From: a virus | DNA length: 64,000 nt | Virus record (IMG/VR): IMGVR_UViG_3300044911_000835 | Span: 1 to 64,000 of that record | Direction: 5' to 3' (one strand) | Shown: piece by piece, positions 3,873 through 13,160 of the stretch | How positions within the stretch are numbered: position 1 is the stretch's first letter | Layout: every line of letters starts with the position of its first letter | Translations under genes and position numbers: made by a program | Notes under the pieces: generated by a model | The model's input: only the letters and a program-made list of their open reading frames with translations | What the model was told of the DNA's origin: nothing | Databases searched by the model: none

Positions 3873-3903
3873 ATCTTTTCTAACTTGATGAAGGAAGAAC
3901 AAA

Positions 3904-4029
3904 ATGTTTGGCGAATTCACTGTTCCTGCTTACGCACACGATGCTGTTTGGTACGATATGGTTGATCGTGGCTATATTGAAGTTCCTACCGAGTTTGTTG
4001 ATAAAGAACTTGAAGTGTTTGACGAGTAA
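3904..4029 (+). CDS. acidic 41-aa protein (not in ORF track)
   Basis: MFGEFTVPAYAHDAVWYDMVDRGYIEVPTEFVDKELEVFDE*; AAGGAAG RBS. Confidence 0.65.
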   Translation: MFGEFTVPAYAHDAVWYDMVDRGYIEVPTEFVDKELEVFDE

Positions 4030-4086
4030 TTGTTTTACTGTTACACTTTTTGGTGACAAAGTGCGGATTGCTCACGAAACGAGCAT

Positions 4087-4276
4087 TATTTAGAAATGTC
4101 TACAGCATTAATAGTTGCGTACTATCCTCTGGGGCACTAACAGTATGGAAACACTGTTAGGCACAAGGTAGGCTAAATACTATTAATGTAGTGAAAGTGC
4201 GAGAATGAAGATGGTAAGTCGTTTCCTAATCCCGTGTACATCTAAAGGGCACGTTACTAGTAGATATTTCTAAATA
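4087..4276 (+). ncRNA. orphan multi-stem RNA cassette
   Basis: 17-bp terminal stem TATTTAGAAATGTCTAC/GTAGATATTTCTAAATA; nested stems. Confidence 0.6.
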
Positions 4277-4343
4277 GGTTGTTACCTTAATTGCTTCGGC
4301 ATCTTAAATTAACAATAATATCAGAACTGGTAAATCTGATAGC

Positions 4344-4455
4344 CTATCAACCCACTGAAGAGCTGATGAAAGTTCAGCGAAACAGTCGTATCACAGCTAA
4401 TCTTGATATAAAATAAAATAATCAGAAGATTGTAGCTATATGACTGTATGGATAG
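4344..4455 (+). ncRNA. type I hammerhead ribozyme
   Basis: CUGAAGA core 4355-4361; stem II GCUGA/UCAGC; GAAA 4379-4382; stem III CAGUCGUA/UAUGACUG; GUA cleavage triplet 4446-4448; stem I CCA/UGG plus CUAUC/GAUAG. Confidence 0.85.
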
Positions 4456-4639
4456 TGTTGCGATTATAACAGCTACTTCTTATATCATGCTAAAGAAGTG
4501 CTTAGTAGTTGAAATGAGCACAAATGTTGTAATCAGCCAACAGATCAAGTGTTGGTACTTTCAGTGAAGATTGTACTAGAGAAACTATAATTTCTTTAGA
4601 TTGCTGATCGCGTCTGTTATAGACTTTATCTCACTATCC
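4450..4639 (+). ncRNA. Y-RNA-like element Y0 (large multi-stem cargo)
   Basis: GGATAGTG/CACTATCC closing stem; TTGCG..TATAACAG-CTACTTC ... CTGTTATA-GACTTTATCTC scaffold shared with 5223, 5372, 5471. Confidence 0.75.
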
Positions 4640-4640
4640 T

Positions 4641-4801
4641 TTTTAAGTAAAGCACAGCTTAATAAACTAGCCTAGTTGATCACTAAGCGAATAGGTTTAA
4701 TTGCGTAACTGCCTAGGGAGTGGACTACCTTGGCAACACTTATACGAAGGAAATTGGTTGCTCCACGGCCTTTTCTAAAGTATAAGGGGCTTTACTTAAA
4801 A
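4641..4801 (+). ncRNA. orphan multi-stem RNA cassette
   Basis: 13-bp terminal stem TTTTAAGTAAAGC/GCTTTACTTAAAA; internal hairpins; possible GTGGA/TCCAC pseudoknot. Confidence 0.55.
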
Positions 4802-4802
4802 T

Positions 4803-4875
4803 TGCGGCTTCAGATAGTCTGACTACGGGCTCATAACCCATTAGGGAGGGAGAGCGTTACTCCCGGCCGCATCCA
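4803..4875 (+). tRNA. atypical tRNA-Met(CAU), initiator-like
   Basis: GGG-CT CAT AA-CCC anticodon arm, TCCA end; shrunken D arm and non-consensus T loop. Confidence 0.6.
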
Positions 4876-4908
4876 GATTTATTGTAGTACCACCACCGGA
4901 GACTTAAA

Positions 4909-5139
4909 TTGAAGTTTAAAACAAAACCTGTAGGTAAGTTTGTGTATGGCGTTGCAGCTTTTAACGGATTGGTCACCCAATATTGGGGTGATAGTTATAA
5001 AGATGCAGAGGATGCGTTTTACAAAAGCCATACAGCTACCCATCTTTATAAGATGGTAGGTTCAGTAAAAGAAGTAATTAAGGAAAATCAACGTCGTATG
5101 CGTCAACCAGGAGCAATTGCTCTAGCATTCGGCAAGTAA
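4909..5139 (+). CDS. hypothetical protein
   Basis: TTG start with GGAG RBS. Confidence 0.6.
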   Translation: MKFKTKPVGKFVYGVAAFNGLVTQYWGDSYKDAEDAFYKSHTATHLYKMVGSVKEVIKENQRRMRQPGAIALAFGK

Positions 5140-5146
5140 ACAATTT

Positions 5147-5220
5147 GGGGCTTTAGTTTAATGGGAGAACCACTGGTTTGCAACCAGTTAATAACAGTTC
5201 GATTCTGTTAAGCTCCACCA
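5147..5220 (+). tRNA. tRNA-Ala(UGC)
   Basis: GGGGCTT/AAGCTCC with G3-U70, TT TGC AA loop, ACCA. Confidence 0.93.
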
Positions 5221-5222
5221 AA

Positions 5223-5362
5223 TAATATGTTGCGTAGAAAAGACTTACTTCCACTTCTAATGGGGTTGTCACAGGTTCGAGTCCTGTATAAGGGACGGAG
5301 TCTCTTATTAGCTCAGTTGGTAGAGCACCTAAAATTCGTTTTTTCGACTTTTTCTCATATTA
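5223..5362 (+). ncRNA. yrlA: YrlA-type Y RNA (Y1) with permuted tRNA domain
   Basis: T arm (5271-5287) precedes a closed acceptor-like hairpin and the D arm TAGCTCAGTTGGTAGAGCA (5309-5327); lies upstream of a TROVE gene. Confidence 0.85.
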
Positions 5363-5371
5363 ACAAAATTC

Positions 5372-5461
5372 AGCAGTTGCGTATATAACAGTTACTTCCT
5401 CACCATCTAACGAGGGCCGCTTTGAGGGCGTCCCGTTTCTGTTATAGACTTTTTCTCTGCT
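5372..5461 (+). ncRNA. Y-RNA-like element Y2
   Basis: AGCAG TTGCGTA TATAACAG TTACTTC ... CTGTTATA GACTTTTTCT CTGCT. Confidence 0.75.
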
Positions 5462-5470
5462 TCCACTTAA

Positions 5471-5537
5471 TCCGCTGCGCTAATTCTAGTTACTTCATTT
5501 ATCGGAAATAAAACACTAGAATAACCTATTTCTCGGA
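5471..5537 (+). ncRNA. minimal Y-RNA-like element Y3 overlapping the Rsr RBS
   Basis: TCCG CTGCGCTA ATTCTAG TTACTTC ... CTAGAAT AACCTATTTCT CGGA. Confidence 0.65.
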
Positions 5538-5546
5538 GCTATACAA

Positions 5547-7067
5547 ATGTCAAAATTCAATCAAGCAAACACTTTAGCAAAAGCTTTTTCTGCTAATGGT
5601 AACCTTCAGTATGTTAAGCCTGAAAAAGAACAACTATATGAATTAGTTGTTAATACTCTTTACGGGCGTGATACCTTTTACGAAACCACTGATGCTAAAG
5701 CACAGCGACTTTCAGCTATAGTAGCTAAGCTCGTTGCGTCTAATGAATTCAACTTCCTAGCAAACTTGGCTGTGCACGCAAGGCATGAAATGAATGTGCG
5801 AAATATGCCAGTCATGCTAGTTGACCAGACTGTTAAAGCTTTGAAAGCTCAAGGTAAGAACTTTGCTGGAACTCGTACCCTTGTAAGCCAAGTTGTTGGT
5901 CGCGTTGACCAAATCACCGACTTACTAGCTTTACTAGGCGACAAGGCTAAAATGCCTATGGCGCTAAAGCGCGGGTTGAGTGATGCTTTTAACAAGTTTT
6001 CAGAGTACCAATTTGCCAAGTACAATCGTGCTGGTAAAGTTACTTTGAAAGACGCAATGCGTATCGTACATCCAGTTCCTAAGGATGTGGATATGTCTAT
6101 CCTTTTTGACAAGATCATGAAGGGTAACTTATCGACCCCCGATACGTGGGAAGTAGCACTATCTCGTGATGGTAACACCAAAGAAGTTTGGGAAGGCCTA
6201 ATCGACCGCAAGGTACTAGGGTATCAAGCTACTTTAAAGAATTTGCGTAACATGCTGAATGCTGGAGTTAGTGCAGACCATCAGCGTCAGGTTGCTAAGT
6301 ACATTGTTGACTTCGCCGCTTCTAGCAAATCACTACCATTTGAGTTTCTAGCTTCTATGGAAGCTATTAAGAGTCTTGGTAGTCAGATTCTCAACAATGC
6401 ACTTATTGAGGCTATGGATGCGTCCGTAGTTAACGTACCTTCACTAGGAAACAAAGTTCTAGTTCTACTAGATACTTCTGGTTCTATGGGATTTATGGAA
6501 GGGCGTGCAGTTAAGAACGCAAGCTTCTTGTCAGCAGTATTAGCAAGTGCTAGTAAGAACTGTGAGAAATTCACACTTATTAGTTTCGCTTCTAATGCTA
6601 GACGGCATACTATTAATACCTCAGAACGTGTATTTTCTACCTATGAAAAGCTTGTAAAAGCCAGTGGTGGTGGAAGTACAGATTTTCTTGCTGGATTAAT
6701 AGAGGCTACTAAGGACGGTGTGGAATATGATACAGTCATTGTCCTAACAGATAATGAAATGGATAGCTTTAAGCACTCCTACAATGTAGGTAACTTCCAG
6801 AAGCAGGCCACTAGAGTTATCATTGACTGTTCTGCGTCCGAAACTAGCATTGCTAGCCCCTATGCTGGGTGGCATCATCTTGCAGGTTGGTCACCTAATA
6901 TGTTCCGGTATCTTGATGCAGTTCGTGAAGGTACTTCGATGGTTGAGATGTTAAGTCAACCATTTTCTAGTATGCTAATGAAACGCGAACTAGCGTCTAG
7001 GCGCTGGTCTAGTAAAGAAGTACCTACTTCCAACGTACCGAAAGCTGGACTAACTCATAGCGATTAA
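5547..7067 (+). CDS. rsr: Ro60/Rsr-like TROVE-domain RNA-binding protein with C-terminal vWA domain
   Basis: AR.EMNVR, F..FSEYQFAKYNR, LKD.MR..HP.P, PDTWEV.LS, L.YQA.LKNLRN; vWA MIDAS DTSGSM, GGST, LTDNE. Confidence 0.93.
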   Translation: MSKFNQANTLAKAFSANGNLQYVKPEKEQLYELVVNTLYGRDTFYETTDAKAQRLSAIVAKLVASNEFNFLANLAVHARHEMNVRNMPVMLVDQTVKALKAQGKNFAGTRTLVSQVVGRVDQITDLLALLGDKAKMPMALKRGLSDAFNKFSEYQFAKYNRAGKVTLKDAMRIVHPVPKDVDMSILFDKIMKGNLSTPDTWEVALSRDGNTKEVWEGLIDRKVLGYQATLKNLRNMLNAGVSADHQRQVAKYIVDFAASSKSLPFEFLASMEAIKSLGSQILNNALIEAMDASVVNVPSLGNKVLVLLDTSGSMGFMEGRAVKNASFLSAVLASASKNCEKFTLISFASNARRHTINTSERVFSTYEKLVKASGGGSTDFLAGLIEATKDGVEYDTVIVLTDNEMDSFKHSYNVGNFQKQATRVIIDCSASETSIASPYAGWHHLAGWSPNMFRYLDAVREGTSMVEMLSQPFSSMLMKRELASRRWSSKEVPTSNVPKAGLTHSD

Positions 7068-12860: not shown

Positions 12861-13160
12861 ACTTAAGCCTAGTGCTTAAGTTGTAAGTCTAAATTGAAGA
12901 GGTTGAGACAGGGGTTCGATTCCCCTCACCTACAAAGACGATGTGGGTGTCTTGGGTTCGATCAGCGTTGGATATCTAGACTGAGAATCGGCAATGTAGA
13001 AGCCGTAATGTAAGTGCTCTGCAACAGCAGGTCAATTCCTTTGTTGTTAAAGCTTACGAAGAAACAAAGCATTTTAAATGCAAACGACGAAGTATACGCT
13101 ATCGCTGCCTAAGCTTTAGCTGAGGTTTTGAGACTGTTCCTTATTACCCAATACAGTCTC
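12861..13160 (+). ncRNA. ssrA: circularly permuted (two-piece type) tmRNA
   Basis: T arm and acceptor 3' strand (12910-12934) precede the acceptor 5' strand GTGGGTG (12943-12949, G3-U70); tag ORF 13080-13112 = ANDEVYAIAA*. Confidence 0.88.

What the first reader, a model, noticed from the sequence alone, without database searches (positions are those of the whole stretch)
4344..4455. Hammerhead ribozyme placed to cut at the 5' end of the largest Y-like RNA
Seen: full hammerhead core (CUGAAGA, stem II GCUGA/UCAGC, GAAA, 8-bp stem III with long extension, GUA triplet). Cleavage after A4448 releases an RNA starting UGGAUAGUG, one nt before the closing stem of Y0. The 3' strand of hammerhead stem I is also the 5' strand of the Y0 closing helix, so the two folds are mutually exclusive. 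Established: hammerheads leave 5'-OH and 2',3'-cyclic phosphate ends, the ends used by RtcB, and Rsr loci are often linked to rtcB. Inference: ribozyme-based maturation of a Y RNA with a 5'-OH end, possibly allowing ligation or circularisation. I do not know of a described hammerhead-Y RNA-Ro60 coupling, but could not search for one.
Basis: partly seen in the sequence, partly recalled or inferred. Interest (0 to 1): 0.9.

Follow-up and report, generated by a model that had tools for sequence, protein, structure and literature searches.

The report
Hammerhead ribozyme cuts out phage Y RNA
An uncultured lake phage carries a complete self-cutting hammerhead RNA placed so that its cut falls one base before a Ro60-type Y RNA, which suggests a way of making a Y RNA's 5' end that I did not find described and gives this phage ribozyme a readable job.

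Summary
Observation confirmed. Window 4352-4451 holds the only hammerhead in the 77-kb virus record. It has the full type I core, G10.1-C11.1, A15.1-U16.1, a GUA site cut after A4448, and stems I/II/III of 3/5/10 bp. Shuffles give 0.005 such hits per window.

It belongs to a conserved phage cassette (4274-4448): a covarying 5' three-way domain plus a hammerhead with a ~60-nt stem III. I found this cassette in about 16 other viral contigs.

The RNA that begins at U4449 (Y0, 4450-4639) is a real Y-RNA module. It shares the scaffold (outer stem, YUGCG, inner stem, YUACUUC, then ACUUUWUCU and outer stem) with three elements just before the Ro60 gene. One of those matches Rfam YrlA (E 4.5e-6). The signature recurs upstream of Ro60 in dozens of independent loci.

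Most likely the hammerhead cuts during transcription and releases Y0 with a 5'-OH end. The Y0 terminal helix then forms.

The RtcB/circularisation idea is not supported: there is no RtcB and no second ribozyme.

The coupling was found only here, among 62 Y scaffolds in 46 Ro60 sources. The nearest relatives could not be fetched, and cleavage is untested. RNA contigs give only a weak hint.

Earlier work in this scan reported phage Y-RNA modules and phage hammerheads on other DNA, but never the two coupled.

The parts
4019..4047 (+). Sigma-70-like promoter candidate (TTGACG-17-TACACT, TG-extended) that could start the non-coding transcript
   Evidence: Consensus scan only. There were fewer hits than in shuffles, so this is a weak lead.
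4274..4347 (+). Conserved 5' accessory domain of the cassette: P1 4274-4279/4342-4347, stem A 4280-4284/4310-4314 enclosing hairpin B (UUCG loop), and hairpin C 4319-4325/4335-4341
   Evidence: MFE fold. The same layout occurs in 12 related viral loci, with compensatory changes in P1, hairpin B and hairpin C; 17 of 32 alifold pairs change on both sides.
4352..4451 (+). Type I hammerhead ribozyme: stem I 4352-4354/4449-4451, core CUGAAGA 4355-4361, stem II 4362-4366/4374-4378, GAA 4379-4381, stem III 4382-4391/4438-4447 with a ~46-nt extension, GUA 4446-4448
   Evidence: It is the single descriptor hit, with 0.005 expected. Every core position matches 22 other instances.
4448..4449 (+). Predicted self-cleavage site (after A17 = A4448). 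The products are a leader ending in a 2',3'-cyclic phosphate and Y0 with a 5'-OH on U4449.
   Evidence: The position follows from the hammerhead numbering. The end chemistry is established hammerhead chemistry. RNA contigs break across 4365-4461 or 4212-4486 in 3 of 4 RNA runs (weak).
4450..4639 (+). Y0, a Ro60-type Y RNA module: outer stem 4450-4457/4632-4639, loop UUGCG 4458-4462, inner stem 4464-4472/4614-4622, box CUACUUC 4473-4479, ~135-nt cargo of unknown kind, 3' internal loop ACUUUAUCU 4623-4631
   Evidence: Signature scan: 4 hits against 0.15 expected. Comparative model. Fold z -3.0.
4640..4644 (+). U5 run directly after the Y0 outer stem, a possible 3'-end signal
   Evidence: Sequence. 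However, RNA contigs read through it (4462-4825 and 4487-4807), so the 3' end is unsettled.
5147..5220 (+). tRNA-Ala(UGC). Its CCA ends 2 nt before the outer stem of Y1, so it acts as a second, non-ribozyme 5'-end definer.
5223..5362 (+). Y1, a YrlA-type Y RNA with T and D arms and the same scaffold as Y0
   Evidence: Rfam RF02553 covers 5238-5347 over the full model, 35.1 bits, E 4.5e-6, below the gathering score of 69. Scaffold.
5372..5537 (+). Y2 (5372-5461) and Y3 (5471-5537), short-cargo Y modules. The Y2 scaffold is nearly identical to that of Y0.
5547..7067 (+). Ro60/Rsr orthologue (506 aa, TROVE + vWA)
   Evidence: Pfam PF05731 1.4e-29 and PF25045 1.5e-7. 344 homologues.

Best explanation
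Positions 4274-4448 are a leader-plus-hammerhead processing cassette placed directly in front of Y0, the first and largest of four Y RNA modules that serve the phage's Ro60 protein.

The proposed steps are as follows.
1. As the polymerase passes about position 4452, the hammerhead forms: a 3-bp stem I, stem II, and a long stem III, probably buttressed by the conserved 5' domain and loop II.
2. The hammerhead cuts its own chain after A4448.
3. The short stem I lets go. The leader keeps the 2',3'-cyclic phosphate, and Y0 starts at U4449 with a 5'-OH.
4. When the 3' strand at 4632-4639 is made about 180 nt later, GGAUAGUG pairs with CACUAUCC. This closes the outer stem / YUGCG loop / inner stem scaffold that Ro60 is expected to bind.

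The ribozyme does for Y0 what tRNA-Ala processing does for Y1: it makes a precise 5' end 1-2 nt before the terminal helix.

Shown: the motif, its family and covariation, the Y scaffold, the geometry, and the order of folding in silico.
Inferred: cleavage in vivo, Ro60 binding, and any benefit of the 5'-OH end (for example escape from 5'-monophosphate-dependent decay).
For: 1. Complete hammerhead, unique in the record and far above chance.

2. Family evidence. In 23 instances anchored on the core, C3-A9, G12-A14, G10.1-C11.1 and A15.1-U16.1 are invariant. Stem III positions 3-8 and stem I position 1 show AU/UA/CG/GC/GU swaps. A second long-stem-III copy in L091 has a different stem II (GGCU/AGCC) and a 6-bp stem I.

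3. The 5' domain covaries across 13 sequences.

4. Y0 carries the YUGCG-N10-YUACUUC signature, which has 4 hits in the window (all at Y0-Y3, + strand) against 0.15 expected. The four copies have paired but different outer and inner stems and a conserved 3' loop. Y1 matches YrlA. The signature lies just upstream of Ro60 in dozens of independent loci. The full scaffold is found in 5 loci outside the window and in 0 shuffled controls.

5. The cut falls 1 nt before the Y0 outer stem. The tRNA-Ala CCA ends 2 nt before the Y1 outer stem. For a cassette dropped at random into about 900 nt of non-coding DNA, landing within +/-2 nt of a Y boundary has roughly a 0.5% chance (my estimate).

6. Folding order. 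The hammerhead-active pairing is the MFE at transcript end 4452, and Y0 closure is the MFE at 4646.

7. Genome-level link to Ro60. TROVE is present in 5 of 10 cassette-bearing viral contigs, including 2 of 2 that are at least 91% complete. It is on the same strand, 19-23 kb away. It is absent from all 5 contigs with ordinary short hammerheads. Those Ro60s are only about 29% identical to the window's clade.

8. In all relatives the cassette lies inside a 1.2-1.4 kb non-coding tract, so it always releases a non-coding RNA.
Against: - No experiment shows cleavage.
- Rfam hammerhead models do not score the site, although they are weak on controls too.
- The family stem I is only 3 bp, which would be poor without tertiary support.
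- The hammerhead-to-Y arrangement is seen once. It is the only case among 62 Y scaffolds in 46 Ro60 sources, and there are no genuine cases in the viral or prokaryote genome pattern scans. Conservation of the coupling is therefore unproven.
- The closest Ro60 relatives (56-83% identity) could not be fetched.
- In the relatives, the cassette's payload has no Y signature and no sequence similarity to Y0. Their canonical Y scaffold sits beside Ro60, about 20 kb away.
- One RNA run has a contig bridging the cut site (4087-4658).
- RNA contigs run through the proposed Y0 3' end.
- Y0 lacks the literal GNCGAA/CGAA motif of described Y RNAs.
Confidence: 0.66

Rival explanations
1. Generic transcript chopping. 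The cassette is a portable phage processing or insulator element that segments a long structured transcript, as clustered prophage hammerheads do. It may instead exist to give the upstream leader RNA a defined 2',3'-cyclic-phosphate 3' end. On this view its position next to Y0 is incidental to Ro60 biology.
For: The cassette precedes unrelated payloads in relatives and in L091. It lies about 20 kb from Ro60 there, while a separate Y scaffold sits beside Ro60. The coupling is unique to this window. Phage hammerheads that cut polycistronic RNAs are well known (PMC3088659). The leader domain is itself conserved, so it may be the product that matters.
Against: The cut lies exactly 1 nt before the Y0 terminal helix, and stem I shares bases with it. 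A parallel arrangement exists at Y1 with tRNA-Ala. Cassette-bearing genomes are strongly enriched for Ro60 (5 of 10, against 0 of 5 controls).
Confidence: 0.2
2. Inactive or purely structural hammerhead-like junction. The motif folds but does not cleave in vivo, for example because the Y0 helix or the P1 pairing of CCUAU outcompetes the 3-bp stem I. Y0 ends would then be made by host nucleases.
For: Stem I is only 3 bp. In the full-length RNA the MFE lacks stem I. CCUAU 4343-4347 can pair with the upstream AUAGG (P1). A bridging RNA contig exists in X16. There is no Rfam hit.
Against: All 13 core or core-adjacent positions are intact, and they are held invariant across diverged relatives whose helices covary. 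That pattern is expected only under selection for catalysis. The active fold is the MFE while the site is being transcribed. RNA contigs break over the hammerhead in 3 of 4 RNA runs.
Confidence: 0.08
3. RtcB-coupled ligation or circularisation. The 5'-OH of Y0 is joined by RtcB to a cyclic-phosphate end, giving a circular or re-ligated Y RNA.
For: The hammerhead end chemistry matches RtcB substrates. The Salmonella rsr-yrlBA-rtcBA operon links Ro60, Y RNAs and RtcB (PMC7790460).
Against: There is no RtcB in this record or in five related phage genomes. Only one ribozyme is present, and no twister, pistol, hatchet or HDV-like match appears near the Y0 3' end, so Y0 would lack the 3'-phosphate end that RtcB needs. 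No back-joined contig was seen (table 5). An earlier follow-up in this scan on another phage also found RtcB not tied to hammerheads (e1-3417229).
Confidence: 0.04

Closest known systems
Type I hammerhead ribozymes of phages and prophages (Perreault et al. 2011, PMC3088659; Rfam RF00163, and RAGATH-1-hammerhead RF03152 with an extra 5' hairpin)
   Same: Identical catalytic core, type I topology, a GUH cleavage site, and the conserved loop II (UGNAAKU) and AACCCN 5' arm shared with short phage hammerheads. An extra 5' hairpin is reminiscent of RAGATH-1.
   Different: Stem III is about 60 nt instead of a short hairpin, stem I is only 3-4 bp, and a covarying ~75-nt three-way 5' domain is attached. 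The element sits inside non-coding RNA rather than between ORFs. It is not detected by any Rfam hammerhead model.
Bacterial and phage Y RNAs with Ro60/Rsr (YrlA/YrlB, Rfam RF02553; Chen et al. 2014, PMC4201824; phage phiLo Yrl1/Yrl2, PMC12135203)
   Same: Encoded next to Ro60. The architecture is terminal 5'-3' stem, internal loop, second stem. Several modules are processed from one precursor, one of them a tRNA mimic (Y1).
   Different: Y0 has no tRNA-like domain and no literal GNCGAA/CGAA motif; it has YUGCG and YUACUUC instead. It carries an unknown 135-nt cargo. No described Y RNA has a self-cleaving ribozyme defining its 5' end.
HDV-like theta ribozymes beside phage tRNAs (Kienbeck et al. 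2024, PMC10879173)
   Same: A small self-cleaving ribozyme encoded directly beside a phage structured non-coding RNA, proposed to mature it (abstract only).
   Different: A different ribozyme class, a different client (tRNA), and no Ro60 context. I did not read that paper beyond its abstract.
Salmonella rsr-yrlBA-rtcBA RNA repair operon (PMC7790460)
   Same: Ro60 plus Y RNAs in a system concerned with 5'-OH and 2',3'-cyclic-phosphate RNA ends.
   Different: No RtcB or RtcA is found here. The ends here would be made by a ribozyme, not by damage.

Membership tests
Hammerhead ribozyme (type I) | Conserved core C3 U4 G5 A6 N7 G8 A9 and G12 A13 A14 | tested here: met
   CUGAAGA at 4355-4361 and GAA at 4379-4381.
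Hammerhead ribozyme (type I) | A15.1-U16.1 pair, G10.1-C11.1 pair, and a non-G nucleotide (H17) at the cleavage site | tested here: met
   A4382-U4447, G4362-C4378 and A4448. These are invariant in 23 instances.
Hammerhead ribozyme (type I) | Three helices around the core, with stems II and III closed and stem I open | tested here: met
   Descriptor hit with stems of 3/5/10 bp, 0.005 expected by chance. The MFE reproduces the junction.
Hammerhead ribozyme (type I) | Helices supported by compensatory changes in relatives | tested here: met
   Stem III positions 3-8 and stem I position 1 covary. Stem II differs in L091, L007a and L020a/d.
Hammerhead ribozyme (type I) | Match to curated covariance models (Rfam CL00010, RF03152) | tested here: inconclusive
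   No hit at E<=10. Classic short controls reach only E 0.004-5 or nothing. The long stem III insert is the likely reason.
Hammerhead ribozyme (type I) | Site-specific Mg2+-dependent self-cleavage giving 5'-OH and 2',3'-cyclic phosphate ends | not testable with these tools
   Only a weak hint is available: RNA contigs break over the element in 3 of 4 RNA runs.
Y RNA (Ro60 ligand; YrlA/YrlB kind) | Encoded adjacent to a Ro60/TROVE gene | tested here: met
   Y0 ends 907 nt upstream of the Ro60 start, on the same strand. Y1-Y3 lie in between.
Y RNA (Ro60 ligand; YrlA/YrlB kind) | Terminal 5'-3' stem, internal loop or bulge, and a second stem | tested here: met
   An outer stem of 8 bp, the UUGCG/ACUUUAUCU loop, and an inner stem of 9 bp. 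The same plan, with different paired sequences, holds in Y1-Y3 and in 5 other Ro60 loci.
Y RNA (Ro60 ligand; YrlA/YrlB kind) | Conserved 5'-strand motif GNCGAAN0-1G / CGAA | tested here: not met
   Y0 has UUGCG and CUACUUC instead. In the Rfam alignment of Y1, the YUACUUC box takes the place of the model's CGAAUGCUU. This is a clade variant, not the literal motif.
YrlA (RF02553) | tRNA-like T and D arms with an acceptor-like hairpin | tested here: not met
   There is no RF02553 or tRNA hit in 4449-4644 at E<=10. Only Y1 has them. Y0 is therefore a Y RNA module but not a YrlA.
Y RNA (Ro60 ligand; YrlA/YrlB kind) | Physical binding to Ro60 | not testable with these tools
   Needs EMSA or co-immunoprecipitation.
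RtcB-linked RNA repair/ligation system | RtcB encoded in the locus or genome | tested here: not met
   PF01139 is absent from G000 and from 5 related phage records. The control genomes score.
RtcB-linked RNA repair/ligation system | Both a 5'-OH and a 3'-phosphate or cyclic phosphate on the ends to be joined (a second cleavage at the Y0 3' end) | tested here: not met
   There is a single hammerhead in 77 kb and no other ribozyme family near 4640.

The most novel reading that the evidence does not exclude
The leader-plus-hammerhead cassette is a dedicated generator of 5'-OH ends for Ro60 client RNAs throughout a deep clade of Ro60-encoding phages. On this reading, the 0.5-0.75 kb structured RNA that the cassette releases in the relatives would itself be a giant, uncatalogued Ro60-bound RNA. 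That RNA begins AGGACGAA, so it carries the Y-RNA CGAA motif at its very 5' end, which can pair with the 3' U-rich end. The window's Y0 would be the compact version of the same design.
Probability: 0.2. Interest if true: 0.85.

Novelty: new variant of a known kind. Interest (0 to 1): 0.63.

Why it matters
Most bacterial and phage hammerheads have no known job, and how bacterial and phage Y RNAs get their ends is poorly understood. In this locus the geometry gives a direct, testable function: a ribozyme sets the 5' end of a Ro60 partner RNA and leaves it with a 5'-OH.

The work also defines a previously uncatalogued hammerhead variant, which Rfam does not detect. It has a ~60-nt stem III, a 3-bp stem I and a covarying 5' accessory domain. 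It is enriched in Ro60-encoding phages, hinting at a wider link between self-cleaving RNAs and Ro60 RNA surveillance during infection.

If confirmed, the cassette would also be a compact natural tool for making exact 5' ends on structured RNAs.

Tried and rejected
- Rfam cmscan, at gathering thresholds and at E<=10, on the window and on related loci. It gave no hammerhead and no Y0 hit. Controls showed the hammerhead models are insensitive for this group.
- blastn of 4000-5200 against GenBank phages: no match.
- The search for related loci with the Ro60 protein, with P0003, or with the alignment reached only relatives at 48% identity or less.
- Pattern scans for hammerhead followed by a Y scaffold in viral contigs (long and short stem III) and in genome contigs. 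All hits failed the helix descriptor or lacked Ro60.
- Sequence or profile similarity between the window's flanks or Y0 and the relatives' large RNA: none.
- A 5'-3' closing helix in the relatives' released RNA. Complementary segments exist, but most are 8-10 bp with G-U pairs and U-rich, and are not above chance except in L005 and L014. I left this as a lead.
- RNAalifold proposed pairing U2.1-C3-U4-G5 with the cleavage-site region. I rejected this because the window's own sequence breaks it, while the hammerhead stem I register covaries.
- My 'Y0 outer stem enforced' energy used a mis-set constraint (one base off) and is disregarded.
- Metatranscriptome contigs. Parts without cover and differences in depth are not evidence. 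Only the coincidence of breaks over the hammerhead in two studies is kept, as a weak hint.
- The strict 3'-partner rule for Y scaffolds recovered only 9 of 63 signatures. It is too strict to serve as a census.

Full report
**Setting**

The window is bases 1-64000 of a 77-kb IMG/VR virus record, about 73% complete. Near-identical DNA occurs in many lake-water metagenomes. The window carries 23 tRNA genes and a permuted tmRNA. An ORF at 5547-7067 is a Ro60/Rsr orthologue, with TROVE at 1.4e-29 and the Ro60 vWA domain. The stretch 4030-4908 has no convincing ORF.

**The hammerhead is real**

Reading the sequence gives a complete type I hammerhead:
- Core: CUGAAGA at 4355-4361.
- Stem II: GCUGA/UCAGC, closing the loop UGAAAGU.
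- GAA at 4379-4381.
- The A15.1-U16.1 pair (4382-4447), which opens a 10-bp stem III with a long imperfect extension.
- Cleavage site: GUA, cut after A4448.
- Stem I: ACC/UGG (4352-4354 with 4449-4451).

RNAfold finds the three-way junction unaided. A descriptor scan that I wrote finds exactly this one site in the window, against 0.005 hits per shuffled window (0.08 with all three topologies). It finds none in the remaining 13 kb of the record.

Rfam 15 reports no hammerhead, even at E<=10. The same models see classic short hammerheads from related phage contigs only at E 0.004-5, or not at all. That negative is therefore uninformative. The ~60-nt stem III is the likely reason.

**It belongs to a conserved cassette**

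A DNA pattern built on the core and stem II found 21 viral contigs. Five carry ordinary short hammerheads. Sixteen carry a hammerhead with the same loop II, a 3-4 bp stem I and a 62-64-nt stem III. In these it is preceded by a structured domain (P1, a stem enclosing hairpin B, hairpin C, then GCC..AACCCN) that the window shares at 4274-4354.

I anchored all 23 instances on the core. The catalytic positions and the 10.1-11.1 and 15.1-16.1 pairs are invariant. Stem III positions 3-8 and stem I position 1 show many compensatory swaps.

RNAalifold on 13 cassettes supports P1 and hairpins B and C, with 17 of 32 pairs changed on both sides. It also proposed a shifted pairing over the cleavage site. 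I reject that pairing because the window's sequence breaks it, while the true stem I register covaries.

A further copy in metagenome contig L091 has a different stem II (GGCU/AGCC), a 6-bp stem I and a 65-nt stem III. It sits in a tRNA-rich non-coding tract 3.5 kb from a Ro60 gene that is 48% identical to the window's.

**What the cut releases**

I tested this claim.
- The signature YUGCG-N10-YUACUUC occurs four times in the window, at 4458, 5230, 5377 and 5475. All are on the + strand, and 0.15 hits are expected.
- Each copy has an outer stem (8, 7, 5 and 4 bp) and an inner stem (8-9 bp). These differ in sequence but still pair.
- Each copy has a conserved 3' internal loop, (G)ACUUUWUCU.
- Y1 (5238-5347) aligns over the full length of Rfam YrlA at E 4.5e-6. 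This is below the gathering score, but the T and D arms are clear.
- The signature lies just upstream of Ro60, on its strand, in dozens of independent viral and metagenomic Ro60 loci.
- The complete scaffold is recovered in five loci outside the window and in none of the shuffled controls.

Y0 (4450-4639) is therefore a Y-RNA module by paralogy and context. It is not a YrlA, because it has no tRNA-like arms. It also lacks the literal GNCGAA/CGAA motif of described Y RNAs (PMC4201824, PMC12135203). Earlier follow-ups in this scan identified the same kind of module as the Ro60-binding stem of phage Y RNAs on other genomes.

**Geometry and folding**

Cleavage leaves U4449 one nt ahead of the Y0 outer stem. 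In the same way, the CCA of tRNA-Ala ends 2 nt ahead of the Y1 outer stem. G4450 and G4451 are shared between the 3-bp stem I and the Y0 helix. In the extended register (CCUAUC/GAUAGG) six to seven bases are shared.

In growing-transcript folds, the hammerhead stem I is the MFE pairing when the chain ends at 4452. Y0 closure takes over only when 4632-4639 exists. A conformer with an active hammerhead plus 6 bp of the Y0 helix costs 6.7 kcal/mol over the MFE. This fits co-transcriptional cleavage, followed by release from a deliberately short stem I and then closure of the Y RNA.

**Link to Ro60 beyond this window**

TROVE genes are present in 5 of 10 cassette-bearing viral contigs. This includes both contigs that are at least 91% complete. 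In each case the gene is on the same strand, 19-23 kb from the hammerhead. TROVE is absent from all 5 contigs with short hammerheads. Those Ro60s are only about 29% identical to the window's clade.

In these relatives, however, the canonical Y signature sits beside Ro60 (L081, L082 and L085). The cassette instead precedes a 0.5-0.75 kb structured RNA, inside a 1.2-1.4 kb non-coding tract that ends at convergent genes. That RNA has no Y signature and no detectable similarity to the window's flanks. It does begin AGGACGAA, which contains the CGAA motif. The cassette thus behaves as a portable 5'-processing module. Whether all its payloads are Ro60 clients remains open, and this is the novel case.

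**How unique is the coupling**

With a loose descriptor, the window's Y0 is the only one of 62 Y scaffolds in 46 Ro60-bearing sources that has a hammerhead within 60 nt upstream. Pattern scans of IMG/VR (long and short stem III) and of 185,000 prokaryote genomes returned only chance matches, without proper helices or Ro60.

**Expression**

Four metatranscriptome runs from two studies hold the locus. Only assembled contigs were available.
- X15: pieces cover 3900-4364, 4462-4825 and 4860 onward.
- X17 and X18: pieces cover 3900-4211 (or 4203), 4487-4807 (or 4799) and about 4880 onward.
- X16: one contig bridges 4087-4658.

The breaks over the hammerhead in three runs are compatible with an RNA end near 4449. 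This is a weak hint only. The contigs also run through the U5 tract at 4640-4644, so the Y0 3' end is not settled.

**RtcB and circles**

RtcB (PF01139) is absent from this record and from five cassette-bearing phage records. The control genomes score. There is a single ribozyme in the record. The cyclic phosphate therefore stays on the leader, and Y0 would have no 3'-phosphate end for RtcB to use. No back-joined contig was seen. I rate this extension at about 4%.

**Literature**

Full-text searches found no paper that links hammerheads with Y RNAs or Ro60. The nearest precedents are:
- phage and prophage hammerheads that cut polycistronic RNAs (PMC3088659);
- HDV-like theta ribozymes beside phage tRNAs (PMC10879173);
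- Y RNAs processed from a common precursor next to Rsr (PMC4201824).

**Verdict**

It is not supported in its RtcB/circularisation extension.

This is a new variant of known kinds: a hammerhead variant with an accessory domain, used here to mature a Y RNA. My confidence that the hammerhead is genuine is about 0.95. My confidence that it defines the Y0 5' end in vivo is about 0.66.

Noticed in passing
window 4803-4875: A tRNA-like element that ARAGORN and Rfam do not call. It has a 7-bp acceptor-type stem (UGCGGCU/GGCCGCA) followed by UCCA, a T-arm-like hairpin (GGGAG..CUCCC with an atypical loop), and a possible anticodon-type loop CUCAUAA. The fold is -27.7 kcal/mol, z -2.3. RNA contigs of three runs break here.
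   Followed up: partly
L002, L003, L005, L008-L012, L014-L019, L021, L022 (about -500 to +750 around each hammerhead): An uncatalogued large phage non-coding RNA locus of 1.2-1.4 kb, with no Rfam match. It comprises a conserved leader, the hammerhead, then a 0.5-0.75 kb structured RNA that starts AGGACGAA. It contains repeated small hairpins of the form GACCCUAAGC..GUCGUAAAA and ends at a U-rich terminator before convergent genes.
   Followed up: partly
L081:2418, L082:2417, L085:2415(-): In the cassette-bearing phages that have Ro60, a canonical Y signature (UUGCG-N10-UUACUUC) lies about 150 nt beyond the TROVE ORF. These phages therefore carry an ordinary Y RNA beside Ro60 as well as the distant hammerhead RNA.
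   Followed up: partly
window 5139-5348: One metatranscriptome contig (X16, depth 7) joins 5139 to 5348 and skips 208 nt, which is exactly tRNA-Ala plus most of Y1. This may be a strain variant lacking that pair, or a processed form.
   Followed up: no
window 12880-13112: Circularly permuted (two-piece) tmRNA, Rfam RF04321, 78 bits, inside the phage tRNA array. L087, a Ro60 relative, also has a tmRNA call.
   Followed up: no
window 4087-4270: Another stem-closed structured RNA just upstream of the cassette, with a long terminal helix (CUACAGCAUUAAUAGU with ACUAUUAAUGUAGUG). It is covered by RNA contigs in all four RNA runs. Its kind is unknown.
   Followed up: no
L020 5958-9162 (- strand): Six tandem short type I hammerheads, each just upstream of a small ORF with a strong ribosome-binding site. 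This is the classic clustered prophage arrangement, and Rfam sees it only weakly.
   Followed up: no
This is a possible feedback operator.
   Followed up: no
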